Shown one piece after another: positions 9,840 to 28,186 of a stretch of DNA of 64,000 nt (its first letter is position 1; every line of letters begins with the position of its first letter). A program made the position numbers and the translations under genes. Source of the DNA: Calditrichota bacterium (GTDB taxonomy: Bacteria > Electryoneota > RPQS01); the NCBI GenBank assembly GCA_020637395.1, contig JACJWA010000003.1:10380-74379 (forward strand). Reading direction: 5' to 3'. Under the pieces are notes generated by a model, which saw only the letters and a list, made by a program, of their open reading frames with translations, was not told where the DNA came from and searched no databases.

Positions 9840-9843
9840 CGCA

Positions 9844-11165: not shown

Positions 11166-14100
11166 GCTGGATTACAGATCTCTTCGACCCCAAGCAGCGG
11201 GAATGGGAAGACCTCTATAGAAACCGCTGGTCGTATGATAAGATTATTCGCAGCACACATGGTGTTAATTGCACGGGCGGTTGCAGTTGGAATATTTACG
11301 TCAAGAACGGCATTGTCACGTGGGAAATGCAAGCTCTTGACTATCCAATAATCGACAAGGATATTCCTCCCTACGAACCTCGCGGCTGTCAACGCGGCAT
11401 CTCGTACTCTTGGTATATCTATAGTCCCATTCGGGTGAAGTATCCCTACGTTCGCGGCGCCCTGATTGATTTGTGGCGCGACGCAAAACGCAATTTCCCC
11501 GACAACCCGGTTGCGGCATGGGACTCTATTGTTTCAAATCCGGAATCCCGCGCTCGCTATCATTCCGCACGTGGCAAAGGCGGATTGCGGCGGTTTAGCT
11601 GGGACGAAGCGCTTGAGATTCTCTCTGCGGCAAATATTCACACGGTGCAGAAGCACGGCCCAGACCGCATCGCTGGCTTCTCGCCGATTCCCGCAATGTC
11701 GATGGTAAGTTACGCCGCCGGAGCGCGCTTCATGCAGCTCATGGGCGGCGTTTCACTTTCGTTCTATGATTGGTACTGCGATTTGCCTCCAGCTTCTCCT
11801 GAGATTTGGGGCGAGCAGACGGACGTCGCAGAAAGTGCGGATTGGTTCAAATCGGGATTTATTGCTGTCGTTGGATCAAATGTCTTGATGACGCGAACTC
11901 CCGACGCGCATTTTCTTGTTGAAGCTCGGCACCGCGGAGCAAAAGTCGTCGTCTTTTCGCCGGATTTCTCGATGGTTTCCAAAGTCTCGGACGAGTGGGT
12001 GCCGATTCATCAGGGACAGGATTCTGCGTTCTGGATGTCCGTGGGGCATACGATTTTACGCGAGAATTATGTCGAACGAAGTGTTCCTTACTTCACGGAC
12101 TACCAGAAACGTTTTACCGACGGTCCGATTCTCGTACAGTTGCACAAACAAGCTGACGGAAGCTTTAAGCCTGGCCAATACCTGCGTGTGTCTCAAGTCG
12201 ATACAATCACTAGGATCGACAAGCCTGATTGGAAATTCTTGATGATAGATTCCAAGAACGGCGAGCTTCGTCTTCCGCAAGGAACCATCGGACATCGCTG
12301 GCAAGACAAGAAGGGTCAATGGAATCTAAAACTCGAAGACGAGCGCACGGGTGAAGAGTTTGATCCGATTTTGACGTTGGATGCAGGCAAAGACGAACTG
12401 GTCACGGTAAGTATTCCTGAGTTCTCTTCCGAAAAGGGCGAAGGACGGATCGAGTCCAAGGTTCCTGTCCGCAAGATTCAGTCGTCGCAGGGCGATATCT
12501 ATGTGACAACAGCTTTTGAATTGTTGATCGCAAGTTACGGTGTAAGCCGCAACTCGACCAAGCCGATTCCATACGACGAGCCCGATCATTGCTATACGCC
12601 GGCATGGCAAGAAAAATTTACGGGCGTGTCCGGTGATGTCGTACTTCGCTTCGCTCGCAACTGGGCGACCACTGCTGAAAAGACAAATGGCCGCTGCAGC
12701 GTTATCATAGGCGCTGGTGTGAACCATTGGTACCATAATAATCTGATTTACAGATCGATTATCTCGAGCCTCATGTTATGCGGCTGTGTCGGGAAAAATG
12801 GCGGCGGACTCAACCACTATGTTGGACAGGAGAAACTTGTTCCGCAGACATCGTGGGCGCCGATCGCGTTCGGTACCGATTGGTCCGCACCTCCTCGTTT
12901 ACAAAACACGCCATCCTTCCACTATGTCCACTCGGATCAATGGCGCTACGACGGAAAGATGGACGAAGTCTGCCCTGTCGCGGATCGTTCGCACTCAATG
13001 GCTTCCGGTCACACAATTGACCGGCAAATTCAGGCAGTGCGCGCGGGGTGGCTTCCTTCGTATCCCCAATTCGATCAATCCTCGATTGAAGTGGCTCGTG
13101 AAGCGCGGCAAAACGGTGCCGAAGATGAAGCGTCAATTATCAAGAATGTCGTTGACCGTTTGAAATCTAAGAAACTCAAGTTTGCAGTCGAGGATCCCGA
13201 CTCTCCGAAGTGTTTCCCGAGAATCTTCTATATCTGGCGGGGCAATGCGTTGATGTCTTCAGCGAAAGGACATGAGTATTTCCTAAAGCACTATCTCGGG
13301 ACACACACGAATCTCATCGCTACGGAGCGCGCGAAGGAACTCGTCGAGGATGTGACATGGCACGATAAGGTCGAACTCGGCAAAATGGACTTGGTAGTTG
13401 ACCTCAACTACCGAATGGACTCATCTGCACTCTATTCGGACATCATTTTGCCGGCGGCAACGTACTATGAGAAGAATGATCTCAACTCGACGGACATGCA
13501 CAGTTTCATTCATCCGTTGCAGGCCGCCGTTCCTCCTTGTTGGGAATCCAAAAGCGACTGGGATATATTCCGCGAGATCGCGCGTGCAACATCGAAACTG
13601 GCAGAGAAACACCTCCCGGATCCCGTCGATGATGTCGTGACTGCGCCACTCGCGCACGACACACCGGCTGAAATTGCACAACCGACGGTCAAGGATTGGT
13701 CAAAAGGCGAGTGCGAAGCGATCCCTGGCAAAACGATGCCCGCCATGAAAGTTGTCAAACGCGACTACAAGAATGTCTTTAACAAATTTGTAAGTCTTGG
13801 GCCAAATTTCAGAAACGGGCTCGGCATGCACGGTCTTCAGTTTGAAGTCGCGGACATGTACGATTCCTACATGGAAAATAACCCTACAGAAAAATGGGGC
13901 GGCAAAGAGTACCCCTCATTACGTGAAGATGTTCTGGTTTGCGAAGCGATTTTGAATTTCGCACCCGAGACAAACGGCGAGCTGGCTTTCCGTGCCTACA
14001 AAGCTGAGGCGGTCAAAACTGGAATAGATCACTCGCATGCTGCCGAAAAGACTCGCTCAGTTCGCATTACGTTTGAAGACATCTCAGCCCAACCTCGGAG

Positions 14101-14785
14101 AATTCTTACCACACCATTTTGGACGGGTGTTACTAGCGACAACAGGACCTATTCGGCGTACTGTCAAAATGTGGAAGGAGATATTCCGTGGCGCACGCTT
14201 AGTGGAAGACAGCACTACTATCTCGACCATGAAACGTATATCGCATACGGAGAAAACCTTCCCACGTACAAACCTCGTCCGGCGCGAGAAATTCTCGGTG
14301 ATTTGAAAATGTCAAAACCGGCCGGTGGAACACTGGTGCTGAACTATTTGACCCCCCACGGGAAATGGTCCATCCACTCAACTTACGGCGATACTCTTAG
14401 AATGCGCACGCTCAGCCGAGGGCACGATCCAATTTGGATCAATGATAAGGACGCATTGCTTCTTGGCGTAGATGACAATGATTGGGTTGAAATCTTCAAT
14501 GATCACGGAGTGGTGTGCACATGCGCGAACGTCAGCGCGCGAATCCCTCGAGGCATGTGTTTTATTTACCACTCTCCGGAACGTACAATCGGTATTCCAA
14601 AGTCGCCCGAACGCGGAAACCGCCGAGCTGGTGGTCACAACAGCCTTACGCGCGCGCGGCTGAAGCCACTCTTTATGATCGGCGGATATGGACAATTTAC
14701 ATATGCCTTCAATTACTGGGGTCCTCCCGGAGTGAATCGGGATACTTTTGTGGCAGTCAAGAAACTCGATAAAATAGACTATTAG
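11162..14785 (+). CDS. narG: respiratory nitrate reductase alpha subunit NarG
   Basis: 1207 aa. N-terminal [26 protein letters not shown] (FS0 HxxxCxxxC motif) is near-identical in pattern to E. coli NarG. No Tat signal. Confidence 0.97.
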
Positions 14786-14794: not shown

Positions 14795-16285
14795 ATGGAC
14801 ATTAGAGCACAAGTCTCAATGGTGTTTCACCTCGACAAATGTATCGGATGTCATACGTGCAGCATCGCATGTAAGAACATCTGGACTGACCGACCGGGCG
14901 CAGAATACATGTGGTGGAACAACGTCGAAACGAAGCCGGGAACGGGTTTTCCGCACCGTTGGGAAGATCAGGAGCGCTATAAAGGCGGCTGGAAACTAAA
15001 CGGAAGTAAATCGCTTCAGTTGAAATCGCAGTCCAAATTGAGCGGGCTGCTGAAGCTCTTCTACAACCCAAATCAACCGGGACTTGAAGATTACTACGAA
15101 CCGTGGACGTACGAGTACGAGAATCTCTTTGACGCTCCAGAGGGCGACGATCAGCCGACAGCCAGACCGGTATCTCAGATTACCGGTGAAGAAATGAAGA
15201 TCGAGGCTGGTCCGAATTGGGATGACGATCTGTCAGGCTCTCCCGTCTACGCCGCGAATGATGTAAACTACGACGGACTTACTCCAGAGGAACGGCAGCA
15301 ACTGTTCGAGATTCAGCGAGTCGCGTTCATGTATCTGCCGCGAATTTGTAATCACTGCGCCAACCCGAGTTGTGTGGCATCTTGTCCATCAGGCGCACTT
15401 TACAAACGCGGCGAAGATGGAATCGTGCTGATCAATCAGGACGTTTGCCGCGGCTGGCGCGCCTGCGTCTCAGCTTGCCCGTACAAGAAGATCTACTATA
15501 ATTGGGTAACAGGAAAATCTGAGAAGTGCATTCTGTGTTACCCACGTCTTGAAACCGGACAGGCTCCCGCTTGCTTCCATTCCTGCGTGGGCCGAATTCG
15601 CTATCTTGGCGTTCTTCTATACGACGCAGATCGTATCGAAACAGCAATGAAAACGGCTGATCCGTTGTTGGTCGAGGCGCAGCGTGACGTAATCTGCGAC
15701 CCTAATGATGAAAATGTCATCGCAAGTGCGCGCGCAAATGGAATCAGCGATGAGTTTCTTGAAGCTGCGCGCAAATCTCCCGTGTACAAATACGTCGTTA
15801 AGTGGAAACTTGCTCTTCCGTTACACATCGAGTATCGAACTATGCCGATGCTCTTCTATGTCCCGCCGCTCTTGCCGGTTATGGGAAAAGACGGCGATCA
15901 ACCGTATGATCATGCGGATCAAACGTTGTTTAGCTCTTTGGACAAAGCAAGACTTTCGATCAAATACATGGCTCGCCTCTTCAGTGCTGGAAACGAAGCA
16001 GTGGTTACGGCCGCCCTCAGAAAACTAATGGCCGTCAGATACTACAAACGTATGCAGGATGTCGGAGATGTGGACGATGACAATGTTCGCAGAATCATGC
16101 GCGAAGCTGGCACGACACCCGAAGAAGCGGAAGAAATCTACAGTCTGACTGCTATCCCGACTGTGCACAAGCGGTACGTCCTTCCGCCACTGCAACGAGA
16201 GGAAGCAATCGGTTCGCTCTGCGACGTTCAGGATTGCAAAGGCAGTTGCGGCTACATCAAGCAAGCCGGCGCGGGGAGGAAATAG
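14795..16285 (+). CDS. narH: respiratory nitrate reductase beta subunit NarH
   Basis: 496 aa. Ferredoxin-type Cys groups (CIGCHTCSIACK, CNHCANPSCVASCP, CRGWRACVSACP, CILCYPR). Confidence 0.95.
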   Translation: MDIRAQVSMVFHLDKCIGCHTCSIACKNIWTDRPGAEYMWWNNVETKPGTGFPHRWEDQERYKGGWKLNGSKSLQLKSQSKLSGLLKLFYNPNQPGLEDYYEPWTYEYENLFDAPEGDDQPTARPVSQITGEEMKIEAGPNWDDDLSGSPVYAANDVNYDGLTPEERQQLFEIQRVAFMYLPRICNHCANPSCVASCPSGALYKRGEDGIVLINQDVCRGWRACVSACPYKKIYYNWVTGKSEKCILCYPRLETGQAPACFHSCVGRIRYLGVLLYDADRIETAMKTADPLLVEAQRDVICDPNDENVIASARANGISDEFLEAARKSPVYKYVVKWKLALPLHIEYRTMPMLFYVPPLLPVMGKDGDQPYDHADQTLFSSLDKARLSIKYMARLFSAGNEAVVTAALRKLMAVRYYKRMQDVGDVDDDNVRRIMREAGTTPEEAEEIYSLTAIPTVHKRYVLPPLQREEAIGSLCDVQDCKGSCGYIKQAGAGRK

Positions 16286-16286: not shown

Positions 16287-16823
16287 ATGTCTCGATTTAT
16301 CGTCGGTAACAATTTCGAGCAACTTGCTGTACTGCTCAGCCATCCTCAAGTCAACTATCTGGAGCTTGCCCAGGCTCTCGCGGAAGCCGTGGACTCAAAA
16401 CACGCAACCCGGCACATCAAAGCTTTTCTTAAGGAAATAGAATCGCTCTCGATCACTGATCTTCAAGAGCTGTATTCGAAGACCTTTGATTTGAATCCGG
16501 TTACGTCACCCGCCTTAAGTGTCCACCTCTTTGGAGTGGAAAGTTTCAAGAGGTCGCACTTGATGGTCGGGCTGCTCGACATGTATCGCAAGACTGCGTA
16601 TGTTTCCACAGGCGAGTCTGCCGACCACATGAGCACAGTAATTGGGTTTCTACCATGCGCTTCTGTGGTCGACCGCAAAGAACTTTCGACATACGTAATT
16701 TTACCCGGGCTGATGAAAATGGCGGAGTTTCTGGCTTCGAAAAACAATCCATTCGCGCATCTACTCAAAGCGGCTTGCGAAATCGTTGAGACCGAGGCAG
16801 GAAAGGAGGCCGTCTATGCTTGA
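16287..16823 (+). CDS. narJ: nitrate reductase Mo-cofactor assembly chaperone NarJ
   Basis: 178 aa, TorD/NarJ-like (LQELYSKTFDLNP...ADHMSTVIGFL); in the narJ position between narH and narI. Confidence 0.8.
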   Translation: MSRFIVGNNFEQLAVLLSHPQVNYLELAQALAEAVDSKHATRHIKAFLKEIESLSITDLQELYSKTFDLNPVTSPALSVHLFGVESFKRSHLMVGLLDMYRKTAYVSTGESADHMSTVIGFLPCASVVDRKELSTYVILPGLMKMAEFLASKNNPFAHLLKAACEIVETEAGKEAVYA

Positions 16824-18132
16824 GCTGTTCCTGTTCGTTGGCCTGCCGTACGCGGCCACGATCGTCTGTATCGTCGGAACCGTCCGGCGATTCAAATATG
16901 ATCGCTATGGAATCACGACGCTGTCTTCTCAATTTCTTGAAGGCAAGAAAATGCTTTGGGGTTCCGCTCCTTGGCACATCGGAATATTGACAGTATTCTT
17001 GGGTCATTTTGTCGCTTTTCTTGTTCCGGGTGTGTGGCAACGGCTGATGGCAATTCCTTCGCTGCTTACCATAGCGGAGACTCTTGGCATGGCCGCAAGC
17101 CTTATTTGCCTTGTCGGTTTGATAGTACTCATATTTCGTCGCGCTACTACAGCACGGTTGCAGAAGACAACAAAGCTTGCCGATTTCATAGTTGCATTGC
17201 TCTTGCTTGGGCAAATCGCTTTGGGGTTAATGATCGCCGGTGGTTTCCGGTGGGGTGCAAGCTGGTCCACCGGCACCTTAGCCCCGTACATTTGGAGCCT
17301 CATAACACTCGGCCCCGACATCTCGGTCATTCGCGACATGCCCGTAATTATTCAGGCGCATATTGTCGGTGCGTGGTTAATTGTCTTTATTTTCCCGTTT
17401 ACTCGGTTGATTCATATGATCACGGTTCCCATACACTACTTGATGCGATCGCCGCAAAAAGTAGTATGGACAAACCCGCGCCGCAATGCGAGTGCTGTTG
17501 TCGCCCGGGCGGACCAGAACTCCCGCAGACACTTTATCAAAGCCTCTCTCGGGTTGAGCGCCGCCGGATTGCTGCTCTCCGTCGGAGTGCTTGACAAACT
17601 TGGTCGTTTTTTTCAAATGCCCGGTTTGCATCATGACGAGGAAGCAGATCTACTTGAAACTCGGCTGCGGCGGTTGCAGTTAACTGCCGAAGAGAAACAA
17701 CTCGAATTAGAGCGCTTGCGCAGCAATGAAATCTACGTCTCCAAGCTTTCCGACCTGAATGGATCGACGGGAAAGTATTTCATTGACTATGCAATGCGAC
17801 CCGGCCTTGCTTTTAGATCAGAAGACGGTTGGCCGATGCTGCTCTCTGCCAAATGCACGCATCTCGGCTGCACCGTCGGAAATCAGGTTGACGCAAATGG
17901 CAAGATACTGTGTCCGTGCCATGTCTCGTATTTCGACGTAAAGACTGGATTGCCAAATGAAGGCGCTCCGGCGAAAGCTCCGCTCGACCGCATCGCGTGG
18001 ATTGTTCGCGACGAACAGGGTGCGGAGATCGCGACGGAAAGTTCGCGTGGTTCCCGGACCGGCCGAATTGATCCGCAAATGGCTGAATACTATTCCCTCT
18101 ACATCGTAAGATCACTCTCGGCGGAGGCATGA
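16816..18132 (+). CDS. narI: fusion protein: nitrate reductase gamma subunit NarI (dihaem b) + internal twin-Arg anchor helix + Rieske [2Fe-2S] domain
   Basis: ORF 16786..18132 with ATG 16816 (8-nt overlap with narJ). NarI His ligands in PWHIG/LGHFV and QAHIVG/RLIHM; NSRRHFIKASLGLSAAGLLLSVGVL; Rieske boxes CTHLGC (17854) and CPCH (17911). One continuous frame. Confidence 0.85.
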   Translation: MLELFLFVGLPYAATIVCIVGTVRRFKYDRYGITTLSSQFLEGKKMLWGSAPWHIGILTVFLGHFVAFLVPGVWQRLMAIPSLLTIAETLGMAASLICLVGLIVLIFRRATTARLQKTTKLADFIVALLLLGQIALGLMIAGGFRWGASWSTGTLAPYIWSLITLGPDISVIRDMPVIIQAHIVGAWLIVFIFPFTRLIHMITVPIHYLMRSPQKVVWTNPRRNASAVVARADQNSRRHFIKASLGLSAAGLLLSVGVLDKLGRFFQMPGLHHDEEADLLETRLRRLQLTAEEKQLELERLRSNEIYVSKLSDLNGSTGKYFIDYAMRPGLAFRSEDGWPMLLSAKCTHLGCTVGNQVDANGKILCPCHVSYFDVKTGLPNEGAPAKAPLDRIAWIVRDEQGAEIATESSRGSRTGRIDPQMAEYYSLYIVRSLSAEA

Positions 18133-19229
18133 TGAAGAGATCGTTTGTCGCGTCCACATTTGATTTTCTTTCCTCACGGCTTCCCATTGAGAAGTTAAGC
18201 TTTAAGCACATGGTGACGGAGAAGGATGTTCCCGTTCATCGCATGTCGTGGGGATACTACGTCGGGGGATTGGCGCTCTTCTTTTTCATCATCCAAGTAG
18301 TGACAGGGCTGATGCTCCTGTTTTATTACGAACCAACGGTCAGTGAAGCGCACGAGTCCGTGGAGTACATCACCCATTTTGTCACGATGGGTGCACTCGT
18401 CAGAAATCTTCACGCGTGGTCAGCGTCGTTCATGATCTTCTGTGTCATCACTCACATGCTAACGTCGCTCGCAATGAAGGCGTTTGCAAAGCCGCGTGAG
18501 ATTACATGGATCGCGGGTGTCCTGTTGCTGCTTGTTACTTTCGGATTCGGATTCACCGGCTATCTTCTTCCTTGGAATCAAATCGCAGTAAATGCGACCA
18601 AGGTTGGATTAGCCTCAATCGATCAGGTGGGACAGTATTTGCCGGCGGCTCTCTCTCACCTCGCTGAGGATGTACGCGTGACGATTCAGGGTGCGCCTGC
18701 AATCGGTCAGGCGACACTGAGTCGCTTCTTCGCGTTGCATGTTGTAATTCTTCCGCTGCTCGTACTTGGAGTGATCGGGCTGCATTTGTTGTCAGTTCAA
18801 CTTCACGGAATGAGTCCAGGAATCGAGGAGAAGCCCGTCCGCAAAGAGAAGTTTTTCCCGTTTTTCATTCTGAAGGACTTCAAAGAGTGGGGAATCGCGT
18901 TTCTCGTCGTCTTTGTGCTCGCACTTTGTTTGCCCTTCGATTCACTCTTTCCATACCCGCTGCTCGAACCCTACAACGCTCTCGGATCCACTCCGGACGG
19001 TATCAAGCCTGAATGGTATTTCTACTTCGTCTATTACCCAATGGAGCTGCTTCCCTTCTGGATCATTATTGTCGTCATGACTACGGCGAATCTCGGGCTA
19101 TTTGCGGCGCCCTGGATATTCAAAGGTGCGAGTCACAAATTTATGCGCTGGATTGCATCGGCGATTGCGGCGTATTTGATTATCATGACTCTGTTTGGCG
19201 AAAGCATTTATCACGCCATTAAGGGATAA
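18129..19229 (+). CDS. cytochrome b of a Rieske/cyt b (bc1/b6f-type) complex, b6 core plus subunit-IV part in one protein
   Basis: 366 aa. His pairs in LHAWSASFMIFCVITH and LHVVILPLLVLGVIGLH; TGYLLPWNQ; Qo-site PEWY motif (PEWYFYF). ATGA overlap with the upstream gene. Confidence 0.9.
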   Translation: MMKRSFVASTFDFLSSRLPIEKLSFKHMVTEKDVPVHRMSWGYYVGGLALFFFIIQVVTGLMLLFYYEPTVSEAHESVEYITHFVTMGALVRNLHAWSASFMIFCVITHMLTSLAMKAFAKPREITWIAGVLLLLVTFGFGFTGYLLPWNQIAVNATKVGLASIDQVGQYLPAALSHLAEDVRVTIQGAPAIGQATLSRFFALHVVILPLLVLGVIGLHLLSVQLHGMSPGIEEKPVRKEKFFPFFILKDFKEWGIAFLVVFVLALCLPFDSLFPYPLLEPYNALGSTPDGIKPEWYFYFVYYPMELLPFWIIIVVMTTANLGLFAAPWIFKGASHKFMRWIASAIAAYLIIMTLFGESIYHAIKG

Positions 19230-19234: not shown

Positions 19235-19810
19235 ATGGTCAAGTTTGTTTTTATTGTGGCGCTGGTTTTCATTGGGAACTGCTTCGCTTATCCGGAGTTC
19301 CAGCGTTTTTCACAGGAGAATTCGGGCCGTCCTATAAACTGCGCCATGTGCCACGTCAATGGTGATGGACCCGAAGGCGCTTCGCGGGGCCAAATCGGAA
19401 GTCTCACTCCCGTCGAGCTGAACAGACTAAATGCCGCTCGCGGCGCCTTCGCACCCGGCATGCCCGTCGAAAGCCCAATTCTAAACGCGTTTGGTAACAA
19501 TATCATCAGGAAAATCGGCAAAACGAAATTCCTCGAGTTACGGGCGCACCCCGAGCAACTTGCCGAAGCTTACGGTTTCCAAAGCGATCTCGATGAAGAT
19601 GGAATCCCCGATGCTCAGGAATACTTGGATGGTACAAATCCTCTTAATCGCTCGCACGGCAATCCATGGAAGCTATTTGTTCACAATCTAAACCAATACA
19701 AACTGCACATATTCTTGATCATTCTCGCGACGGTTGCGGGCTTCTATGGCCTGAGCAACCTGCTGCACGGATTCGCAATTCAAGCCGAATCACATGAAGC
19801 GAGAAATTAG
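19235..19810 (+). CDS. monohaem c-type cytochrome, C-terminally membrane anchored
   Basis: Signal peptide; single CAMCH; acidic DLDEDGIPDAQEYLDGTNPLN (thrombospondin-type-3-like Ca-binding motif); C-terminal helix IFLIILATVAGFYGL. Confidence 0.7.
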   Translation: MVKFVFIVALVFIGNCFAYPEFQRFSQENSGRPINCAMCHVNGDGPEGASRGQIGSLTPVELNRLNAARGAFAPGMPVESPILNAFGNNIIRKIGKTKFLELRAHPEQLAEAYGFQSDLDEDGIPDAQEYLDGTNPLNRSHGNPWKLFVHNLNQYKLHIFLIILATVAGFYGLSNLLHGFAIQAESHEARN

Positions 19811-19834: not shown

Positions 19835-21361
19835 ATGCAAGAAAATAGTAAGGCAATTCAAGTACTGATCCTCAATACGCTCGCGTTCACAGTCTGTTTC
19901 GCGGCGTGGATGATGAACGGTGTGTTGATTACCTACCTGGTGGACAATGGAGTGTTTCATTGGGACAAGGCTCAGATGGGATGGTTGATTGGCATACCCG
20001 TCTTGACGGGATCAATCACCCGGCTGCCTGTCGGAATTCTCACGGATAAATATGGCGGTCGTGTCGTCTACAGCGTGCTAATGCTCCTGGCCGCCGTTCC
20101 CATGTTCTTGGTGAGCTATGCCAACAACTTCACACAATTCATGTTGGCAGGACTCGGCTTTGGATTGACCGGAGCCTCGTTCGCGGTCGGAATTGCTTAT
20201 ACGTCTGTGTGGTTCAAAAAAGAGAGACAAGGCACGGCGTTAGGTATTTTCGGAGCAGGAAACGCAGGAGCGGCGCTGACAAGCATGGGAGCTCCATTTG
20301 TATTGCGTTGGCTTACGGATGGCGGCACGAATCTCGAGGGTTGGCGAATGCTCCCGAGAATGTACGCTGGAGGACTTGTCGCTATGGCCGTATTGTTTAT
20401 CCTCTTTTCACACACGAAACTTGCCGGGCACAGTCAGGGATACACTCTTAGGCAGCGCCTTGAACCGCTAAAACACATGAGAGTTTGGAGATTCGGTGCC
20501 TACTACTTTTTGGTGTTTGGCGGATTTGTCGCACTTGCACAGTGGCTGATCCCGTACTATGTCAGCGTCTATTCAGTGACAATTGCGACGGCAGGTTTGT
20601 TGGCTGCAATCTTTAGTTTGCCCTCCGGCGTAATTCGCGCGCTGGGAGGATGGATGTCCGACAGATTTGGCGCACGCAAAGTCATGTATTGGGTACTCGG
20701 GGTGTGTGTGATATGCTGCGGTCTCTTGATCATTCCCAAAATGGACATCCAGTCACCGGGACAAGGCGTAATCGCGGCGAAAGGGGGAACAGTCACCGAA
20801 GTCTCAGATTCCGCTATTTCCGTGGACGGAACACCTTACAATCTTAGGCCTAAGCCGCAAGGTTGGCGAGAACACCTTGATCAAGCAACCTATGTGATTC
20901 CGGCGGGCACATTTTGGCAAGAACCGGTCGTACAAGTCGGCGACAAAGTAAAGAAGAAGGAATTACTCGCCAAAGGCGTAACGCATCTCTACTTTCAAGC
21001 GAACATCTGGATCTTCACGGTACTCGTGTTTATCGTGGGAATCATGATGGGCATCGGTAAGGCCGCCGTATATAAACACATTCCGGACTATTTCCCCGAC
21101 GATGTTGGCGTAGTCGGAGGAATTGTCGGCGTCGTCGGTGGATTAGGTGGGTTCTTCTGTCCGATTATTTTCGGATACTTATTGAAAGGAACGGGTATCT
21201 GGACAACGTGTTGGATGTTCTTTGCAGCTTTTAGCGCCTGGTGTTTGTGGTGGATGCACCGAGTTATTCAACGAATGATGCGCGAAAAACAGCCCGTATT
21301 GATGCGGCAGATTGAGGATCATCACTCTCTGCCAATAACCACGGCAGTTCCTTCAAACTAA
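19835..21361 (+). CDS. narK: NarK-type nitrate/nitrite MFS transporter with ~87-aa loop insertion
   Basis: 12 predicted helices; NNP signature-like GxxxNxG (GIFGAGNAGAAL). Insertion between helices 9 and 10 (aa ~302-388). Confidence 0.85.
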   Translation: MQENSKAIQVLILNTLAFTVCFAAWMMNGVLITYLVDNGVFHWDKAQMGWLIGIPVLTGSITRLPVGILTDKYGGRVVYSVLMLLAAVPMFLVSYANNFTQFMLAGLGFGLTGASFAVGIAYTSVWFKKERQGTALGIFGAGNAGAALTSMGAPFVLRWLTDGGTNLEGWRMLPRMYAGGLVAMAVLFILFSHTKLAGHSQGYTLRQRLEPLKHMRVWRFGAYYFLVFGGFVALAQWLIPYYVSVYSVTIATAGLLAAIFSLPSGVIRALGGWMSDRFGARKVMYWVLGVCVICCGLLIIPKMDIQSPGQGVIAAKGGTVTEVSDSAISVDGTPYNLRPKPQGWREHLDQATYVIPAGTFWQEPVVQVGDKVKKKELLAKGVTHLYFQANIWIFTVLVFIVGIMMGIGKAAVYKHIPDYFPDDVGVVGGIVGVVGGLGGFFCPIIFGYLLKGTGIWTTCWMFFAAFSAWCLWWMHRVIQRMMREKQPVLMRQIEDHHSLPITTAVPSN

Positions 21362-21374
21362 CCGGACTACGCAC

Positions 21375-22922
21375 ATGGGACACTCCCTTACAAATTGGAA
21401 TGTTGAAGACAACGTCTTCTGGGAATCAGAAGGCAAGCGCATCGCGAACCGCAATCTCTGGATATCAATTCCTTGTTTGCTGTGCGGCTTCGCCGTTTGG
21501 ATGTATTGGTCGATTGTCACAACGAAGATGCAGGAACTTGGGTTCGTGTTCGATCCCGATCCGGCAAAGAATAAGGCGATGCTCTACACCTTGATATCCA
21601 TAGCCGGTCTCACAGGTGCGACGCTGCGCATTCCTAACTCGTTTTTCGTTGCACTGAGCGGTGGAAGAAACGTCATCGTCGCTACGACAGCTTTGTTGAT
21701 CCTTCCTGCAATCGGGCTGGGACTTGCACTGCGCGAGCCGGGCACATCCTATTCGACGTTCGTGATTCTCTCCGCGCTCTCCGGCATCGGAGGCGGTGCA
21801 TTTGCATCTTCAATGTCTAACATCAGCATCTTCTTCCCCAAACGGGTACAGGGAACGGCACTGGGATTAAATGCAGGTCTTGGAAATCTCGGCGTCAGCG
21901 TAATGCAAGTACTGTTGCCCTTCACAATGACGTTTGGAATGTTTGGTGCTTTTGGCGGCGGTGCCTACAGTATGCCCACAACCGGTGCTTCGGTGTGGAT
22001 TCAAAACAGTGGATTTGTGTGGGTGCCGATTCTGCTGGTTCTTACGATTCTTGCCTGGTTCTTAATGAACAACATGGCGACGCACAATGTCGGTTCAGCG
22101 CCCACAGCGATTGGCAAAATGCTGTATCTCACCGCTCTGGGTTTCGCGTCCGCGGCTGTCGGCTTGTATTTGCTGATTTCTCTGAAAGTGAATATGTGGA
22201 TCGTTCTTCCCATCACGATACTACTGACACTTGCGCTTATTCGCTATTTGTCGCCTGAGAAGATTCGTACAAACCTGAAAAAGCAGTATGCAATCTTCGG
22301 TGAGAAGCATAATTGGGTAATGACTTGGCTCTATGTGATGACGTTTGGATCATTTATTGGATACTCTGCGGCATTTCCGAAGTTGATACAGGACGTCTTT
22401 GGTTACCTGCCCGATGGCTCTATCAATCCCAACGCGCCGAATCCATTTGCGTACGCTTGGCTCGGGCCACTTGTCGGATCGCTAATTCGTCCGGTGGGAG
22501 GTTGGTTGTCAGACAAATTTGGAGGCGCGCGTGTCACACATTGGGACACGATCGTCATGATCGCTGCTGCGCTGGGTGTAGCTTACAACGTGAAGGCTGC
22601 GAATGACGCGCCAAACCCTGAAGTCTATTTCTTTCCGTTCCTGATTCTCTTCTTGTTGTTGTTCGTCACAACGGGCATAGGAAACGGATCTACGTTCCGA
22701 ATGATACCGATGATCTTCGAGCCTCATCAGGCAGGCCCCGTGCTGGGGTGGACTTCGGCCGTTGCCGCCTACGGTGCATTCATTATTCCGAAAGTATTTG
22801 GCGCACAAATCCAAGCAGGGCATCCGGAATATGCACTGTACGGTTTCGCCGTCTACTATGGCAGTTGTTTATTGGTTAACTGGTGGTTTTACGCGCGACG
22901 GAATGCCGAGATCAAGTGCTAA
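21375..22922 (+). CDS. narK: NarK-type nitrate/nitrite MFS transporter (second copy)
   Basis: 515 aa. RNLWISIPCLLCGFAVWMYWS start and GLNAGLGNLGVS signature, typical of NarK2-like antiporters. Confidence 0.85.
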   Translation: MGHSLTNWNVEDNVFWESEGKRIANRNLWISIPCLLCGFAVWMYWSIVTTKMQELGFVFDPDPAKNKAMLYTLISIAGLTGATLRIPNSFFVALSGGRNVIVATTALLILPAIGLGLALREPGTSYSTFVILSALSGIGGGAFASSMSNISIFFPKRVQGTALGLNAGLGNLGVSVMQVLLPFTMTFGMFGAFGGGAYSMPTTGASVWIQNSGFVWVPILLVLTILAWFLMNNMATHNVGSAPTAIGKMLYLTALGFASAAVGLYLLISLKVNMWIVLPITILLTLALIRYLSPEKIRTNLKKQYAIFGEKHNWVMTWLYVMTFGSFIGYSAAFPKLIQDVFGYLPDGSINPNAPNPFAYAWLGPLVGSLIRPVGGWLSDKFGGARVTHWDTIVMIAAALGVAYNVKAANDAPNPEVYFFPFLILFLLLFVTTGIGNGSTFRMIPMIFEPHQAGPVLGWTSAVAAYGAFIIPKVFGAQIQAGHPEYALYGFAVYYGSCLLVNWWFYARRNAEIKC

Positions 22923-22951
22923 AAACTAAAACAAAATAGGTGAAAAACAGG

Positions 22952-23650
22952 ATGGAAAATTTGCTTGAAACTCCCGTCGGGCAGCTCGTCGTTGAAAAGC
23001 CAAGTAGAGCTCGAATATTTCAAAGACACAAAATAGATTTCTGTTGCGGTGGAGGTCGGTCCCTCAATGTGGTTTGCGCGGAAAAAAACATTGACCCACA
23101 AACTATCAAAGCAGAACTGGCCGACCAAGATAGTCGGGAAGACACTAATTCGGAGCCAGATTGGTCGAATGCAAAGTTATCGGCACTTGTCGATAACATT
23201 CTTGCGCAGCACCATGACTATCTGAAGAATGCGCTTCCGCATCTTGGCGAAATGGCTGAAAAGGTCTACCGCGTTCATGGTGAGCATCATCCGGAAATGC
23301 TCGACGTTCTTCAGACTTTTTCCGGACTGTATGCTGAATTAGATTCCCACATGTACAAGGAGGAGAACATCCTTTTCCCTGCGGTCAAGAGAATTGAGCA
23401 AGGCTCCCTGCCTGCCGAAGCTGCCGCACAGCTCTTTGGGCCGATCAGCGTTATGGAGCAGGAGCACGAATCGGCTGGCCAAGCGCTGTTGAAACTTAGA
23501 GAATTGACCAATGACTACACTCCGCCGGCTGACGCATGCAACACATTTCGTGGACTATTCGCTGGGCTGGAGGAGCTTGAGCGTGATTTACATTGGCACA
23601 TCCACAAGGAGAACAACATCCTCTTCCCGCGTGCCCTAAGAGGTAAGTAA
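22952..23650 (+). CDS. ytfE: iron-sulfur cluster repair di-iron protein (RIC/YtfE/ScdA)
   Basis: ORF 22940..23650 with ATG 22952. N-terminal FQRHKIDFCCGG and hemerythrin-like H/E motifs (HHDYL, HGEHHPE, EQEHE, HIHKENNILFP). Confidence 0.9.
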   Translation: MENLLETPVGQLVVEKPSRARIFQRHKIDFCCGGGRSLNVVCAEKNIDPQTIKAELADQDSREDTNSEPDWSNAKLSALVDNILAQHHDYLKNALPHLGEMAEKVYRVHGEHHPEMLDVLQTFSGLYAELDSHMYKEENILFPAVKRIEQGSLPAEAAAQLFGPISVMEQEHESAGQALLKLRELTNDYTPPADACNTFRGLFAGLEELERDLHWHIHKENNILFPRALRGK

Positions 23651-25864: not shown

Positions 25865-25868
25865 CGTG

Positions 25869-27966: not shown

Positions 27967-28182
27967 CTACTCTCCTTCAAGCGCGCGCAAAATGTCAAGT
28001 GTATCACGTGCTTCGTCTTCGTCAATAATGGCAAGGGCGAATCCTGCATGAACCAAAAGATAGTCACCAATGGACGCGTCCGGAACAAGCGACAAATCCA
28101 CGTTCAATGTAATGCCTGAACTCTCCGCGGTAGCGTAATTGTCACTTTTTTTGATGAGTCGCATCGGTACAGCGAGACACAT
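27967..28182 (-). CDS. hypC: hydrogenase assembly chaperone HypC
   Basis: ORF 27967..28236 with ATG 28182, giving the canonical MCLAVPM N-terminus. Confidence 0.88.
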   Translation of the reverse strand: MCLAVPMRLIKKSDNYATAESSGITLNVDLSLVPDASIGDYLLVHAGFALAIIDEDEARDTLDILRALEGE

Positions 28183-28186
28183 GAAG

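What the first reader, a model, noticed from the sequence alone, without database searches (positions are those of the whole stretch)
16816..18132. NarI (nitrate reductase gamma subunit) fused in frame to a Rieske [2Fe-2S] protein
Seen: one uninterrupted frame from ATG 16816 to TGA 18132. The first ~215 residues are NarI-like. They have five hydrophobic helices and four His in the contexts PWHIG/LGHFV (10 apart) and QAHIVG/RLIHM (18 apart). That is the same spacing as the haem-b ligands H56/H66/H187/H205 of E. coli NarI. Next comes an internal twin-arginine motif plus hydrophobic helix (NSRRHFIKASLGLSAAGLLLSVGVL, nt 17518-17592), then a charged heptad-like stretch, then both Rieske cluster boxes, CTHLGC (17854) and CPCH (17911). 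Established: NarI has 5 TM with N-out/C-in topology. Rieske proteins have an N-in anchor helix and a p-side cluster domain exported by Tat. Inference: a sixth helix after NarI places the Rieske domain in the periplasm, so the fusion is topologically coherent. It would covalently tether NarGHI to the cytochrome b encoded by the next gene (ATGA overlap). No free-standing Rieske gene exists in the operon. I know of no described NarI-Rieske fusion. A Tat motif located after five Sec-type helices also poses an assembly problem; the only precedent I recall is the three-helix actinobacterial Rieske protein, which uses Sec plus Tat.
Basis: partly seen in the sequence, partly recalled or inferred. Interest (0 to 1): 0.85.

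Follow-up and report, generated by a model that had tools for sequence, protein, structure and literature searches.

The report
Nitrate reductase anchor fused to Rieske
The membrane anchor of a respiratory nitrate reductase (NarI) is fused in one gene to the Rieske iron-sulfur subunit of a cytochrome bc-type complex; the fusion is real, occurs in hundreds of uncultured bacterial species, seems never to have been described, and may let nitrate respiration conserve about twice the usual energy.

Summary
ORF 16816-18132 (+) encodes 438 aa. It has a complete NarI domain with all four haem-b histidines, an internal twin-arginine motif with a sixth helix, a conserved 30-residue helical linker, and a bc-type Rieske domain (CTHLGC/CPCH).

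It is not an assembly artefact. The 120 best database clusters are collinear full-length fusions from independent assemblies (48-95% identity). All ligands and the RR pair are invariant, and all four regions are under purifying selection.

The gene order dihaem cytochrome c, narG, narH, narJ, narI::Rieske, cytochrome b, monohaem cytochrome c is kept across more than ten phyla, all as MAGs. A profile scan of species genomes found 559 relatives.

The same Rieske-cytochrome b-cytochrome c module also occurs free-standing without nar. A second, unrelated Rieske type is also found fused to NarI and followed by cytochrome b.

Best reading: a hard-wired Nar-bc supercomplex. I favour the version in which the bc module oxidises menaquinol by a Q cycle and feeds electrons through the c haems and the NarI haems to cytoplasmic NarGH (4 rather than 2 charges per 2e-). 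This route is inferred, not shown.

Ten full-text literature searches found no description of the fusion. Verdict: new variant of a known kind, high interest.

The parts
8370..8813 (+). Rrf2-family regulator. It is a candidate NO/Fe-S-sensing regulator of the cluster. Homologues recur next to the operon in other phyla.
   Evidence: Pfam Rrf2 E 3e-30. NCBIfam rrf2_super passes its cut-off; NsrR and IscR score only weakly. Found in 10 related loci.
8823..10365 (+). moaA-like radical-SAM gene (8823-9839) and a MOSC-domain gene (9829-10365), both for molybdenum cofactor supply.
   Evidence: Pfam Radical_SAM + Mob_synth_C, and MOSC. Recur upstream in related loci.
10347..11165 (+). Membrane-anchored dihaem cytochrome c, NarC-like by position and architecture. 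It has a Sec signal peptide, CAGCH and CITCH, and a C-terminal TM helix with a K/R-rich tail. Its stop overlaps the narG start.
   Evidence: Pfam Cytochrome_CBB3 + Cytochrom_C. Sequence and TM prediction. Both CxxCH motifs and two Met conserved in 19 homologues. Found directly upstream of narG in nearly all loci with room. Its first haem domain resembles the N-terminal domain of the cyt c::Rieske fusion P0131 (by eye).
11162..14785 (+). narG, catalytic Mo-bisPGD subunit, facing the cytoplasm. There is no Tat signal, and the FS0 motif [11 protein letters not shown] is present.
   Evidence: NCBIfam narG equivalog 1537 bits against a cut-off of 1084. N-terminus shown.
14795..16285 (+). narH, the Fe-S subunit.
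   Evidence: NCBIfam narH equivalog 641.9 bits against a cut-off of 524.
16287..16823 (+). narJ-like chaperone. The profile match is weak and the assignment is mostly positional.
   Evidence: NCBIfam narJ 34.4 bits, below the 59.35 cut-off. Conserved position in 24 loci.
16816..18132 (+). narI::Rieske fusion gene, 438 aa (the finding).
16816..17481 (+). NarI domain, residues 1-222. It has five TM helices, the haem ligands H54/H64/H182/H200, and the conserved C-terminal tail PQKVVW..RR.
   Evidence: Pfam and NCBIfam. Alignment to E. coli NarI 1q16_C. Foldseek TM-score 0.81 normalised to 1q16_C. Invariant columns.
17518..17592 (+). Internal twin-arginine motif (S-R-R-x-F-[LIV]-K) and TM6 (residues 241-259). 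This is the predicted Tat-inserted signal-anchor of the Rieske half.
   Evidence: TAT_signal 21.4 bits. R237 and R238 invariant in 121/121. TM6 is the least hydrophobic of the six helices (KD 1.77, Hessa sum +3.26) and is followed by K261 and R264.
17614..17727 (+). Hinge (residues 267-272, pLDDT below 50) plus a conserved 30-residue amphipathic helix (273-302, with the ..LELER.. motif) on the p side.
   Evidence: AlphaFold2 secondary structure and pLDDT. R286, L287, T290, L296-R300 conserved. pN/pS 0.06-0.23. The same helix is present in the free-standing homologues P0133 and P0134.
17728..18129 (+). Rieske [2Fe-2S] domain, residues 305-438. Box I CTHLGC is at 17854-17871 and box II CPCH at 17911-17922, and they include the bc-type disulfide cysteines C352 and C368.
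   Evidence: Pfam Rieske. PDB sequence hits to bc1/b6f Rieske proteins, best 9rk3_A at 2e-9. Boxes invariant in 121/121. pLDDT 84-90.
18129..19229 (+). Long cytochrome b (b6 plus subunit IV fused, 7 predicted TM). Haem ligands are H95/H109 and H204/H219 (x13 and x14 spacing). The Qo motif PEWY is present. YVGG replaces the haem-cn CxGG motif.
   Evidence: Pfam Cytochrome_B, Cytochrom_B_N_2 and Cytochrom_B_C. Best PDB hit is cytochrome b6 1vf5_A at 157.6 bits. Conservation in 82 sequences. Lies directly downstream of the fusion in 96 of 97 locus records with room.
19235..19810 (+). 191-aa monohaem cytochrome c with an N-terminal signal or TM segment, CAMCH, a TSP3-like D-x-D-x-DG repeat and a C-terminal TM anchor. 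It is a candidate cytochrome c1 equivalent of the bc module.
   Evidence: Translation. TM prediction. CxxCH conserved in 78 sequences. Follows cytochrome b in 89 of 93 locus records. No PDB or NCBIfam relative.
19835..22922 (+). Two NarK-family nitrate/nitrite MFS transporters (19835-21361 and 21375-22922).
   Evidence: Pfam MFS_1 and NCBIfam NarK family hits. Their presence implies nitrate import to a cytoplasmic active site.
22940..23650 (+). YtfE/RIC di-iron protein for Fe-S cluster repair under nitrosative stress.
   Evidence: NCBIfam FeS_repair_RIC 266.7 bits against a cut-off of 204.7.

Best explanation
The gene encodes a six-helix membrane protein that is both the gamma subunit (NarI, dihaem b) of a cytoplasm-facing NarGHI nitrate reductase and the Rieske subunit of a cytochrome bc-type quinol oxidase. 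The other parts of that oxidase are encoded in the same operon: cytochrome b, a 191-aa monohaem cytochrome c and an upstream dihaem cytochrome c.

Assembly (inferred). Sec/YidC inserts the five NarI helices co-translationally. The weakly hydrophobic sixth helix, flanked by RR on the cytoplasmic side and by K261/R264 on the other, is released from Sec. Tat then inserts it after the [2Fe-2S] domain has folded in the cytoplasm. This places the cluster domain on the p side.

Architecture (inferred). The Rieske helix is an integral part of a bc dimer. The fusion therefore hard-wires NarGHI to the bc module at 1:1 stoichiometry, giving a Nar-bc supercomplex.

Electron route (favoured, inferred). Menaquinol is oxidised at the Qo site of cytochrome b. 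One electron passes to the Rieske cluster and the membrane-anchored c haems, enters NarI at its p-side haem, crosses the membrane through the two b haems to NarH and NarG, and reduces nitrate in the cytoplasm. The second electron recycles through haems bL and bH to the Qi site. A Q cycle plus the transmembrane NarI wire would move 4 charges per 2e-, against 2 for a classical NarGHI redox loop. With menaquinol (-75 mV) and nitrate (+420 mV) this is thermodynamically affordable.
For: Shown:
- The fusion is intact and conserved, with all cofactor ligands invariant in 121 sequences. Selection is purifying in each region.
- Synteny is near-universal. Cytochrome b lies downstream in 96/97 locus records, cytochrome c after it in 89/93, and narH upstream in 88/88. 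The dihaem cytochrome c lies upstream of narG in nearly all loci with room. This holds across Verrucomicrobiota, Hydrogenedentota, Sumerlaeota, Obscuribacterales, Planctomycetota, Acidobacteriota, Bacteroidota and others.
- Cytochrome b has an invariant PEWY motif and four haem histidines, so a working Qo site is expected.
- NarG has no Tat signal and two narK genes follow, so nitrate is reduced on the n side.
- TM6 shows the Sec-release features defined experimentally for dual Sec/Tat proteins (PMC5449189).
- The Rieske-cytochrome b-cytochrome c module is a self-standing unit elsewhere (P0134, P0133, P0131).
- A second, unrelated Rieske type (with a UCR_Fe-S_N Tat signal) is also fused to NarI and is followed by cytochrome b (P0135/L034). 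Recurrent fusion argues for a functional NarI-Rieske/cytochrome b partnership.
- In 27 loci with 8-9 kb flanks, Nar is the only terminal reductase consistently linked to the module. No nirS, nirK, nrfA or nosZ was found among the recurrent flank clusters or the ten sampled flank ORFs.

Precedents for a bc complex feeding nitrate reductases:
- Haloarchaeal Rieske/cytb-Nar gene clusters (PMC3509893).
- Streptomyces Nar1, whose activity depends on the bcc-aa3 supercomplex and which co-purifies with it (PMC7931247).
- Campylobacter Nap fed by Qcr, with H+/2e- = 2 on menaquinol (PMC6195509).
Against: - No physical or electron-transfer link between the Rieske cluster or c haems and NarI haem bD is shown. 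pTM is only 0.49, so the model says nothing about domain packing.
- The NarI domain is not visibly remodelled compared with its nearest unfused relatives. The E. coli Q-site residue Lys86 is hydrophobic in 121/121 fusions, and is R or K in 43 of 75 unfused representatives. However, the closest unfused NarIs (P0128, P0130, P0137, P0138) also lack it, and P0137 sits in an ordinary narHJI-narK operon. Loss of NarI quinol oxidation is therefore not demonstrated.
- Electron transfer from a Rieske cluster or c haem to NarI haem bD would be uphill if the potentials resemble those of E. coli (my knowledge: about +20 mV).
- The free-standing module lies near nosZ in one case. It can therefore serve periplasmic acceptors, and it may still do so here.
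- The conserved linker helix is a feature of this Rieske clade and is not specific to the fusion.
Confidence: 0.5

Rival explanations
1. The two enzymes are co-assembled but electronically independent. NarI still oxidises menaquinol itself and feeds NarGH by the classical redox loop (2 charges per 2e-). The fused Rieske, cytochrome b and c cytochromes form an anaerobically co-expressed bc complex that delivers electrons to periplasmic acceptors such as nitrite, NO or N2O reductases or other cytochromes. Under this view the fusion only ensures co-expression, stoichiometry or co-localisation in a denitrification 'respirasome'.
For: - The NarI domain is complete and looks like its nearest unfused relatives, which work without a bc module (P0129 in a cyt c-narGHJI-narK operon; P0137).
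- The same Rieske-cytochrome b-cytochrome c module exists without nar, and once lies about 8 kb from nosZ.
- To my knowledge, Thermus NarC has been proposed to pass electrons from Nar outward to periplasmic reductases.
Against: - No periplasmic reductase gene is consistently linked to the operon. None was seen among the recurrent flank clusters or the sampled flank ORFs of 27 loci.
- A covalent fusion kept across more than ten phyla, and evolved at least twice with different Rieske types, is hard to explain by co-regulation alone, which operon membership already provides.
Confidence: 0.3
2. The enzyme runs in reverse as a cytoplasmic nitrite oxidoreductase (NXR). Electrons from nitrite leave through NarI to the c haems or the Rieske cluster. 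They then go either to an oxidase or, by reverse operation of the bc module, uphill to the quinone pool.
For: A Melainabacteria genome paper labelled what appears to be the same kind of gene cluster 'cytoplasmic NXR', followed by petB and narK (PMC6349859). To my knowledge, cytoplasmic NXRs are phylogenetically nested within NarG-type enzymes.
Against: - NarG and NarH pass the narG and narH equivalog cut-offs.
- The operon carries two NarK transporters, an Rrf2 regulator, YtfE/RIC and Moco genes, which is typical of anaerobic nitrate respiration.
- By their record titles, the host lineages are heterotroph-like MAGs (Verrucomicrobiota, Obscuribacterales, Hydrogenedentota) and not known nitrifiers. 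Obscuribacter is predicted to respire nitrate (PMC4040986).
Confidence: 0.05
3. The fusion is an assembly or frameshift artefact, or a decaying gene, and narI and the Rieske gene are really separate.
For: Two 50%-cluster representatives (P0122, P0144) are visibly frameshifted fragments, so errors of this kind do occur in these data.
Against: - 120 clusters and 91 distinct locus sequences from ENA, NCBI, JGI and Logan assemblies, including long-read contigs of up to 7 Mb, share the same uninterrupted frame.
- The ligands are invariant and pN/pS is well below 1 in every region.
- The spacer between the halves carries a conserved RR motif and TM helix and has no stop codon.
Confidence: 0.01

Closest known systems
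E. coli-type NarGHI respiratory nitrate reductase (NarI gamma subunit; PDB 1Q16)
   Same: - NarG, NarH and NarI pass their NCBIfam equivalog cut-offs, and a narJ-like gene sits in the usual position although its match is below the cut-off.
- NarI has five TM helices, four haem histidines with 10- and 18-residue spacing, and Foldseek TM-score 0.81.
- The active site is cytoplasmic, and NarK transporters are present.
   Different: - NarI continues into an RR motif, a sixth helix and a periplasmic Rieske domain.
- The operon also encodes cytochrome b and two membrane-anchored c cytochromes.
- The E. coli Q-site residue Lys86 is replaced by hydrophobic residues in all 121 family members. Some unfused relatives share this, so its meaning is unclear.
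Haloarchaeal Nar gene clusters with Rieske (NarB) and cytochrome b (NarC) (Martinez-Espinosa 2007; Baymann 2012, PMC3509893)
   Same: A Rieske/cytochrome b complex is encoded together with NarGH and is proposed to be the quinol oxidase that feeds nitrate reductase.
   Different: - There NarGH is exported by Tat to the p side. [quoted passage not shown]
- Here NarG has no Tat signal, a complete NarI is present, and it is covalently fused to the Rieske protein.
[quoted passage not shown]
Streptomyces coelicolor Nar1 with the bcc-aa3 supercomplex (Falke 2021, PMC7931247)
   Same: A cytoplasm-facing NarGHI needs an active bc-type complex for activity in vivo and co-purifies with it. The authors consider that Nar1 may receive its electrons from the bc complex.
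   Different: The association there is non-covalent, involves the aa3 oxidase, and is encoded at separate loci. There is no gene fusion and no dedicated bc module in the nar operon.
Dual Sec/Tat-inserted polytopic proteins: actinobacterial three-TMD Rieske QcrA, and the 5-TMD Sco3746 and polyferredoxin families (Keller 2012, PMC3471235; Tooke 2017, PMC5449189)
   Same: An internal RR motif directly precedes the last TMD. That TMD is weakly hydrophobic and is followed by positive charges. The C-terminal domain carries a cofactor and lies on the p side.
   Different: - Five Sec-type helices with N-out topology precede the Tat helix, giving six TMDs in total.
- The N-terminal part is itself a haem-binding subunit of a different enzyme.
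- The 2017 survey of complete genomes, which included an N-out search, did not report this family.
Thermus-type narCGHJIK operons, where a cytochrome c gene is first in the nar operon
   Same: A membrane-anchored dihaem cytochrome c gene lies immediately upstream of narG. Unfused relatives show cyt c-narGHJI-narK (P0129).
   Different: Homology of the window's dihaem cytochrome c to Thermus NarC was not tested. Thermus has no Rieske or cytochrome b in the operon (my knowledge).
Campylobacter jejuni QcrABC feeding Nap and Tor (Garg 2018, PMC6195509)
   Same: A menaquinol-oxidising Rieske/cytochrome b complex drives nitrate reduction and makes it electrogenic.
   Different: The acceptor there is the periplasmic Nap enzyme, reached through carriers, with H+/2e- = 2. 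Here the acceptor would be an n-side Nar reached through a transmembrane dihaem wire, predicted at 4 charges per 2e-.

Membership tests
NarI (respiratory nitrate reductase gamma subunit; PF02665 / TIGR00351) | Profile match above the curated cut-off | tested here: met
   PF02665 203.6 bits (cut-off 22.9), covering 4-218 of the protein and 2-216/217 of the model. TIGR00351 128.9 bits (cut-off 105.55).
NarI (respiratory nitrate reductase gamma subunit; PF02665 / TIGR00351) | Four histidine ligands for two b haems on helices II and V, with 10- and 18-residue spacing | tested here: met
   H54/H64/H182/H200 align with E. coli H56/H66/H187/H205. Invariant in 121/121.
NarI (respiratory nitrate reductase gamma subunit; PF02665 / TIGR00351) | Five TM helices, N-out and C-in | tested here: met
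   Hydropathy analysis with K/R-rich loops at 21-54, 108-123 and 196-240. AlphaFold2 helices. Foldseek to 1q16_C with TM-score 0.81. The orientation itself is inferred.
NarI (respiratory nitrate reductase gamma subunit; PF02665 / TIGR00351) | Encoded with narG, narH and narJ | tested here: met
   narGHJ lie directly upstream. narH is upstream in 88/88 related locus records.
NarI (respiratory nitrate reductase gamma subunit; PF02665 / TIGR00351) | E. coli-type distal quinol site with Lys86 | tested here: not met
   The column is V/A/L/F/I in 121/121 fusions. It is R or K in 43/75 unfused representatives, but is also absent in the nearest unfused ones. The residue is therefore not universal in the family, and the functional meaning is inconclusive.
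NarI (respiratory nitrate reductase gamma subunit; PF02665 / TIGR00351) | Haem b binding and quinol:nitrate activity | not testable with these tools
   Needs biochemistry.
Rieske iron-sulfur subunit of Rieske/cytochrome b (bc1/b6f-type) complexes | Rieske domain profile match, with the CxH and CxxH cluster ligands | tested here: met
   PF00355 28.9 bits (cut-off 20.3). C347, H349, C366 and H369 invariant.
Rieske iron-sulfur subunit of Rieske/cytochrome b (bc1/b6f-type) complexes | Extra cysteine pair (C-x-H-x-G-C and C-x-C-H) that forms the disulfide typical of bc-type Rieske proteins | tested here: met
   C352 and C368 invariant in 121/121. The best PDB sequence hits are bc1/b6f-type Rieske proteins.
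Rieske iron-sulfur subunit of Rieske/cytochrome b (bc1/b6f-type) complexes | Twin-arginine signal-anchor helix preceding the cluster domain | tested here: met
   S-R-R-x-F-[LIV]-K plus TM6. RR is invariant. Pfam TAT_signal scores 21.4 bits, just below its 22.7 cut-off. The motif is internal, not N-terminal.
Rieske iron-sulfur subunit of Rieske/cytochrome b (bc1/b6f-type) complexes | Partner cytochrome b with four haem histidines and a PEWY Qo motif encoded alongside | tested here: met
   The gene at 18129-19229 overlaps the fusion's stop as ATGA. PEWY and the histidines are conserved in 82 sequences.
Rieske iron-sulfur subunit of Rieske/cytochrome b (bc1/b6f-type) complexes | Membership of a named equivalog (PetC, proteobacterial Rieske, actinobacterial QcrA) | tested here: not met
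   Scores are 29-35 bits against cut-offs of 97-275. This is a distinct Rieske clade with a 30-residue helical linker.
Dual Sec/Tat-inserted polytopic membrane proteins (Keller 2012; Tooke 2017) | RR motif directly before the final TMD; that TMD weakly hydrophobic; positive charges just after it; cofactor domain at the C-terminus | tested here: met
   TM6 has the lowest hydropathy of the six helices (KD 1.77; Hessa sum +3.26). K261 and R264 follow it. The criteria are taken from PMC5449189.
Dual Sec/Tat-inserted polytopic membrane proteins (Keller 2012; Tooke 2017) | Experimental dependence of the last TMD on Tat | not testable with these tools
   Needs reporter fusions in tat+ and tat- strains.
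Haloarchaeal-type periplasmic Nar (pNar) with Rieske/cytochrome b | NarG carries a Tat signal and acts on the p side; no NarI | tested here: not met
   The NarG N-terminus [23 protein letters not shown] has no RR followed by a hydrophobic stretch. NarI is present, and two NarK importers follow.
Thermus-type NarC-containing nar operon | Membrane-anchored dihaem cytochrome c encoded as the first gene, upstream of narG | tested here: met
   Gene at 10347-11165 with two CxxCH motifs, a signal peptide and a C-terminal TM helix.
Thermus-type NarC-containing nar operon | Sequence homology to Thermus NarC | not tested
   No Thermus sequence was compared.

The most novel reading that the evidence does not exclude
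A widespread, so far overlooked mode of nitrate respiration. A covalently wired NarGHI-Rieske/cytochrome b supercomplex oxidises menaquinol by a Q cycle and returns the high-potential electron across the membrane through the NarI haems. It would conserve about 4 charges per 2e-, twice the textbook Nar redox loop. It would also be the first six-helix, N-out substrate of combined Sec and Tat insertion, joining subunits of two different respiratory enzymes in one polypeptide.
Probability: 0.4. Interest if true: 0.85.

Novelty: new variant of a known kind. Interest (0 to 1): 0.72.

Why it matters
Nar-type nitrate reduction is a major entry point of denitrification and DNRA. It is taken to conserve energy only through the NarI redox loop, with the bc complex bypassed in Bacteria (PMC3509893).

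A fused Nar-bc unit occurs in hundreds of species-level genomes from soil, freshwater, groundwater and wastewater phyla. These include Verrucomicrobiota, Obscuribacterales, Hydrogenedentota, Sumerlaeota, Acidobacteriota and Planctomycetota. Many environmental nitrate reducers may therefore use a different and possibly twice as efficient coupling scheme.

That would change growth-yield and competitiveness estimates for these uncultured groups. It would also make directly testable the open question raised by Streptomyces Nar1, namely whether a bc complex can feed an n-side Nar.

The fusion also extends the known scope of Sec-to-Tat hand-over in membrane protein biogenesis.

In practice, current annotation names these proteins only 'nitrate reductase subunit gamma', which hides both the Rieske domain and the bc module. 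One published genome analysis read the same kind of cluster as NXR followed by petB.

Tried and rejected
1. Lys86 as a discriminator. The E. coli NarI Q-site lysine is hydrophobic in all 121 fusions, and most unfused representatives have R or K. However, the nearest unfused NarIs (P0128, P0130, P0137, P0138) also lack it. P0137 lies in a plain narHJI-narK operon. I therefore rejected it as proof that NarI lost quinol oxidation.

2. Glu88 and Trp74. E88 is invariant in the fusion family and W74 is present in 120 of 121, but both are also common in unfused NarIs, so they are not specific to the fusion.

3. Search for a split narI + Rieske version of the operon.
- A genome scan with the free-standing Rieske P0133 returned only fused forms plus one locus where the contig start cuts the gene, so the form is unknown (L024).
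- True free-standing homologues (P0133, P0134) sit in nar-less contexts.
- No split nar-linked form was found.

4. Foldseek on the whole model. The Rieske half matched small Rieske ferredoxins ahead of bc/b6f subunits. This reflects the shared core fold only. I used sequence motifs and PDB sequence hits for the bc-type assignment.

5. dN/dS. Synonymous sites are saturated (pS about 0.6-1.1), so only pN/pS ratios are reported.

6. Literature. Ten full-text searches found no description of the fusion.
- The Caldithrix abyssi paper describes Nap plus Rieske/cytochrome b, not Nar.
- The Bacillus azotoformans paper is unrelated.
- Key E. coli Q-site papers are not in the library. The role of Lys86 rests on my own knowledge plus the PDB titles 1y5i and 1y4z.

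7. The dihaem and the 191-aa cytochromes c have no PDB sequence relatives.

8. Modelling the multi-subunit complex was not possible with the single-chain predictor.

Full report
**Observation**

The frame from ATG 16816 to TGA 18132 on the + strand is open and encodes 438 residues. An AGGAGG ribosome-binding site lies 6 nt upstream of the ATG. The start overlaps the stop of the preceding narJ-like gene, and the stop overlaps the start of the next gene as ATGA.

- Pfam finds Nitrate_red_gam over residues 4-218 (E 3.9e-60).
- Pfam finds a TAT_signal match at residues 235-253 (21.4 bits, just under the 22.7 cut-off).
- Pfam finds Rieske over residues 307-389 (28.9 bits against 20.3).
- The NCBIfam narI equivalog is passed, at 128.9 bits against 105.55.
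- A phmmer alignment to E. coli NarI (PDB 1q16_C) puts H54, H64, H182 and H200 on H56, H66, H187 and H205.
- The Rieske boxes CTHLGC and CPCH start at 17854 and 17911. They are the only Rieske motif in the 64-kb window.

**Not an artefact, and not rare**

A search of 5.8 billion clustered proteins gave 620 hits. The best 120 are all 434-452 aa, carry both Pfam domains, and are 48-95% identical to the query over 95-100% of it. They come from ENA, NCBI, JGI and Logan assemblies. Where a source names them, the name is almost always just 'respiratory nitrate reductase subunit gamma'.

In an alignment of 121 members, the four haem histidines, R237-R238, C347-T-H-L-G-C352, C366-P-C-H369 and S371 are invariant. 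Against five relatives at 66-79% identity, pN/pS is 0.18-0.31 for NarI, 0.20-0.54 for the RR/TM6 spacer, 0.06-0.23 for the linker helix and 0.12-0.25 for the Rieske domain. Synonymous sites are saturated.

A profile scan of one genome per GTDB species found 559 stretches that encode a relative. The best 80 are nearly all full-length fusions, and all are from MAGs. By record title they belong to Verrucomicrobiota, Hydrogenedentota, Sumerlaeota/BRC1, Obscuribacterales/Melainabacteria, Planctomycetota, Acidobacteriota, Bacteroidota, Omnitrophota, Gemmatimonadota, Myxococcota, Eisenbacteria and others.

The window itself is probably from Calditrichota. Its closest named relative is a Calditrichaeota MAG at 91% identity, and T9SS-sorted proteins are present.

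**Operon**

The cluster reads as follows:

| Gene | Coordinates |
|---|---|
| Rrf2 regulator | 8370-8813 |
| moaA-like | 8823-9839 |
| MOSC | 9829-10365 |
| dihaem cytochrome c | 10347-11165 |
| narG | 11162-14785 |
| narH | 14795-16285 |
| narJ-like | 16287-16823 |
| narI::Rieske | 16816-18132 |
| cytochrome b | 18129-19229 |
| 191-aa monohaem cytochrome c | 19235-19810 |
| two narK | 19835-22922 |
| ytfE/RIC | 22940-23650 |

- NarG has no twin-arginine signal and keeps the FS0 motif. Together with the NarK importers, this means the active site is cytoplasmic.
- The dihaem cytochrome c has a Sec signal peptide, two CxxCH motifs and a C-terminal anchor.
- The 191-aa cytochrome has CAMCH and a C-terminal anchor.
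- Cytochrome b is a long b6 + subunit IV fusion. Its haem histidines are spaced x13 and x14, GIKPEWYF is invariant, and YVGG stands where b6 has the haem-cn CxGG motif (motif as described in PMC5600118).

In 105 locus records (91 distinct fusion proteins), cytochrome b follows the fusion in 96 of the 97 with room. The small cytochrome c follows in 89 of 93, and narH precedes in 88 of 88. The dihaem cytochrome c precedes narG in nearly all loci with enough upstream sequence.

**Anatomy and topology**

Hydropathy analysis gives the five NarI helices, with K/R-rich loops at 21-54, 108-123 and 196-240. This matches the N-out, C-in topology of NarI. The RR motif lies in the last of these loops.

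TM6 (residues 241-259) is the least hydrophobic of the six helices (KD 1.77, summed Hessa scale +3.26), and K261 and R264 follow it. These are the two features shown experimentally to release a helix from Sec for hand-over to Tat in actinobacterial Rieske proteins and two 5-TMD families (PMC5449189; PMC3471235).

The 2017 survey also searched for N-out proteins with 1, 3, 5 or 7 helices before the RR motif, and it reported only a YkuE-like family. It covered complete genomes only, whereas this fusion has so far been seen only in MAGs.

AlphaFold2 with 62 sequences (mean pLDDT 82, pTM 0.49) gives the following:
- a NarI bundle;
- one long helix, residues 221-266;
- a low-confidence hinge, residues 267-272;
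- a 30-residue helix, residues 273-302;
- a beta-rich Rieske domain, residues 305-431, with pLDDT 84-90.

Foldseek matches the NarI half to 1q16_C (TM-score 0.81) and the C-terminal half to Rieske folds. Domain packing is not reliable at this pTM.

**The bc module is a unit of its own**

A search of 1.84 billion 50%-identity representatives found further fused clusters down to 38% identity: P0121, P0123, P0124 and P0126. It also found free-standing proteins (P0133, P0134, P0139; about 225 aa) that are 46-48% identical to residues 234-436. They have their own N-terminal RR anchor and the same linker helix.

- P0134 sits in Rieske - cytochrome b - 190-aa gene clusters without nar.
- P0133 is preceded by a small cytochrome c gene.
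- P0131 is a cytochrome c::Rieske fusion followed by cytochrome b and a 195-aa gene, about 8 kb from nosZ. Its haem domain resembles the first domain of the window's dihaem cytochrome c (by eye).

So a clade of bc complexes (c-type cytochrome, Rieske with a helical linker, long cytochrome b, small anchored cytochrome c) exists independently, and in many lineages it has been joined to NarGHJI.

P0135 is a NarI fused to a different Rieske type, carrying a UCR_Fe-S_N Tat signal and no linker helix. It too is followed by a cytochrome b gene. P0159 is a third NarI::Rieske form in a narGHJ operon that ends at the contig edge. NarI-Rieske fusion has therefore arisen more than once.

**Mechanism**

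Shown: both halves, the partner cytochrome b and the two c cytochromes are conserved with intact cofactor motifs, and they are inherited as one block together with a cytoplasmic NarGH.

Inferred: the Rieske anchor helix is part of a bc dimer, so the fusion ties NarGHI to the bc module in a supercomplex. I put this part at about 0.9.

For the electron route I favour a Q-cycle-fed Nar, at about 0.45-0.5. The steps are:
1. Menaquinol is oxidised at the Qo site.
2. The high-potential electron passes from the Rieske cluster over the anchored c haems into the p-side haem of NarI, and across to NarH and NarG.
3. The second electron recycles to the Qi site.

Bookkeeping (inference): the Q cycle moves 2 charges per 2e-, and the p-to-n electron transfer through NarI moves 2 more. 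That gives 4, against 2 for the classical loop. The span from menaquinol (-75 mV) to nitrate (+420 mV), values as quoted in PMC6195509, is about 990 meV per pair. This is enough for 4 charges against a proton-motive force that I take as 150-180 mV.

Support for this route:
- Fusion has occurred repeatedly.
- The module is conserved as part of the nar operon.
- No nirS, nirK, nrfA or nosZ appeared among the recurrent flank clusters or the ten sampled flank ORFs of 27 loci. The flanks hold narK, ytfE, Rrf2, Moco and haem biosynthesis genes, SLAC1, a porin and one quinol-type Nor.
- There are precedents in haloarchaea (PMC3509893), Streptomyces Nar1 (PMC7931247) and Campylobacter Nap/Qcr.

Against this route:
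- No contact between the chains is demonstrated.
- The step from the Rieske cluster or a c haem to NarI haem bD would be uphill if the potentials resemble those of E. coli (my knowledge).
- The NarI domain does not differ visibly from its closest unfused relatives.

The E. coli Q-site Lys86 column is hydrophobic in 121/121 fusions and is R or K in 43/75 unfused representatives. One of those, P0129, lies in a cyt c-narGHJI-narK operon without a bc module. But the nearest unfused NarIs also lack the basic residue, and one of them is in an ordinary operon. I therefore treat this test as inconclusive.

**Rivals**

1. Independent quinol oxidases that are merely co-assembled, with the bc module serving periplasmic acceptors (0.3).
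2. Reverse operation as a cytoplasmic nitrite oxidoreductase (0.05). [quoted passage not shown] The NarK, Rrf2 and YtfE context and the host lineages argue for nitrate respiration. Obscuribacter is predicted to respire nitrate (PMC4040986).
3. Assembly artefact (0.01).

**Comparison and novelty**

The protein meets the tested defining features of NarI, except for the E. coli-type Lys86. It also meets those of a bc-type Rieske subunit, but it fails the cut-offs of the PetC, QcrA and proteobacterial Rieske equivalogs, so it belongs to a distinct Rieske clade. It fits the sequence criteria of dual Sec/Tat substrates. It is not a haloarchaeal-type pNar system, because NarG lacks a Tat signal and NarI is present.

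Ten full-text searches found no description of a NarI-Rieske fusion or of a bacterial nar operon with an integrated bc complex, apart from the passing petB remark above. Subscription-only literature was not searchable.

I rate it a new variant of a known kind. The components and the idea of bc-fed nitrate reductases are known. New are the covalent NarI-Rieske link, the n-side Nar as the likely acceptor, the six-helix N-out Sec/Tat topology and the breadth of occurrence.

Noticed in passing
window 19235-19810 (residues 118-138): The 191-aa monohaem cytochrome c carries a thrombospondin type-3-like, calcium-binding-type repeat (DLDEDGIPDAQEYLDGTNP; Pfam TSP3_bac 19.8 bits, below cut-off). Its D-x-D-x-DG core is conserved in 78 homologues. 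No conserved Met or His that could serve as sixth haem ligand was obvious.
   Followed up: partly
L032 9001-10302 (P0131): A cytochrome c::Rieske fusion of the same Rieske clade: haem domain, TM helix, RR, TM helix, linker helix, Rieske. It is followed by cytochrome b and a 195-aa gene, about 8 kb from a nosZ-like gene and an Rrf2 regulator. The module is therefore fused to different partners in different genomes.
   Followed up: partly
L034 369-2430 (P0135) and L121 6459-7763 (P0159): NarI fused to other Rieske types. P0135 has a UCR_Fe-S_N Tat signal, no linker helix, and a cytochrome b gene next to it. P0159 has CQHLGC...CCCH and sits in a narGHJ operon. These look like independent fusion events.
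   Followed up: partly
L122 2661-3875 (P0191): A NarI-like::Rieske fusion with no narGH nearby, next to a cytochrome c gene and a UbiA-family prenyltransferase. It may be a different enzyme that reuses the dihaem b + Rieske combination.
   Followed up: no
P0171, P0193, P0145 and P0169: Other NarI fusions exist: NarI::MFS (NarK-like) transporter (P0171, 644 aa), NarI::multihaem cytochrome c (P0193), and N-terminal cytochrome c::NarI (P0145). P0169 (478 aa) has a similar N-terminal extension, but its domains were not checked. NarI appears to be a frequent fusion partner for periplasmic redox domains.
   Followed up: partly
P0122 and P0144: Two 50%-cluster representatives that looked like 'unfused' or short NarI proteins are frameshifted fragments: the sequence turns to nonsense after GKYFI and after VGAWVL. 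Lengths in the representative library can mislead.
   Followed up: yes
window 24792-36452 (- strand): Next to the nar cluster lie hydrogenase maturation genes (hypB-like, hypE-like, hypD, hypF), a NiFe hydrogenase large subunit (31631-33061) and a NuoF-like NAD-binding subunit (34322-35953). This resembles a bidirectional NAD-linked (Hox-type) hydrogenase.
   Followed up: partly
window 44450-47428 (+) and 45008-47362 (-): A 992-aa ORF with no Pfam match overlaps a 784-aa ORF on the opposite strand. It is unclear which of the two is the real gene.
   Followed up: no
window 48772-51009 and 55842-58937 (- strand): Two large secreted proteins carry Por_Secre_tail (type IX secretion) sorting domains, and one is an S8 subtilase. 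This fits an origin in the FCB group or Calditrichota.
   Followed up: no
L001, L003, L005, L006 (record titles): The closest genome relatives of the fusion (66-79% identity) are titled 'uncultured Alphaproteobacteria bacterium', whereas the 91%-identical database protein is from a Calditrichaeota MAG. The MAG taxonomy labels look unreliable.
   Followed up: no
L025 11602-13902: A quinol-type nitric oxide reductase (NorB with the cytochrome c-like N-terminal domain) lies directly after the Nar-bc operon in one Obscuribacterales MAG.
   Followed up: no
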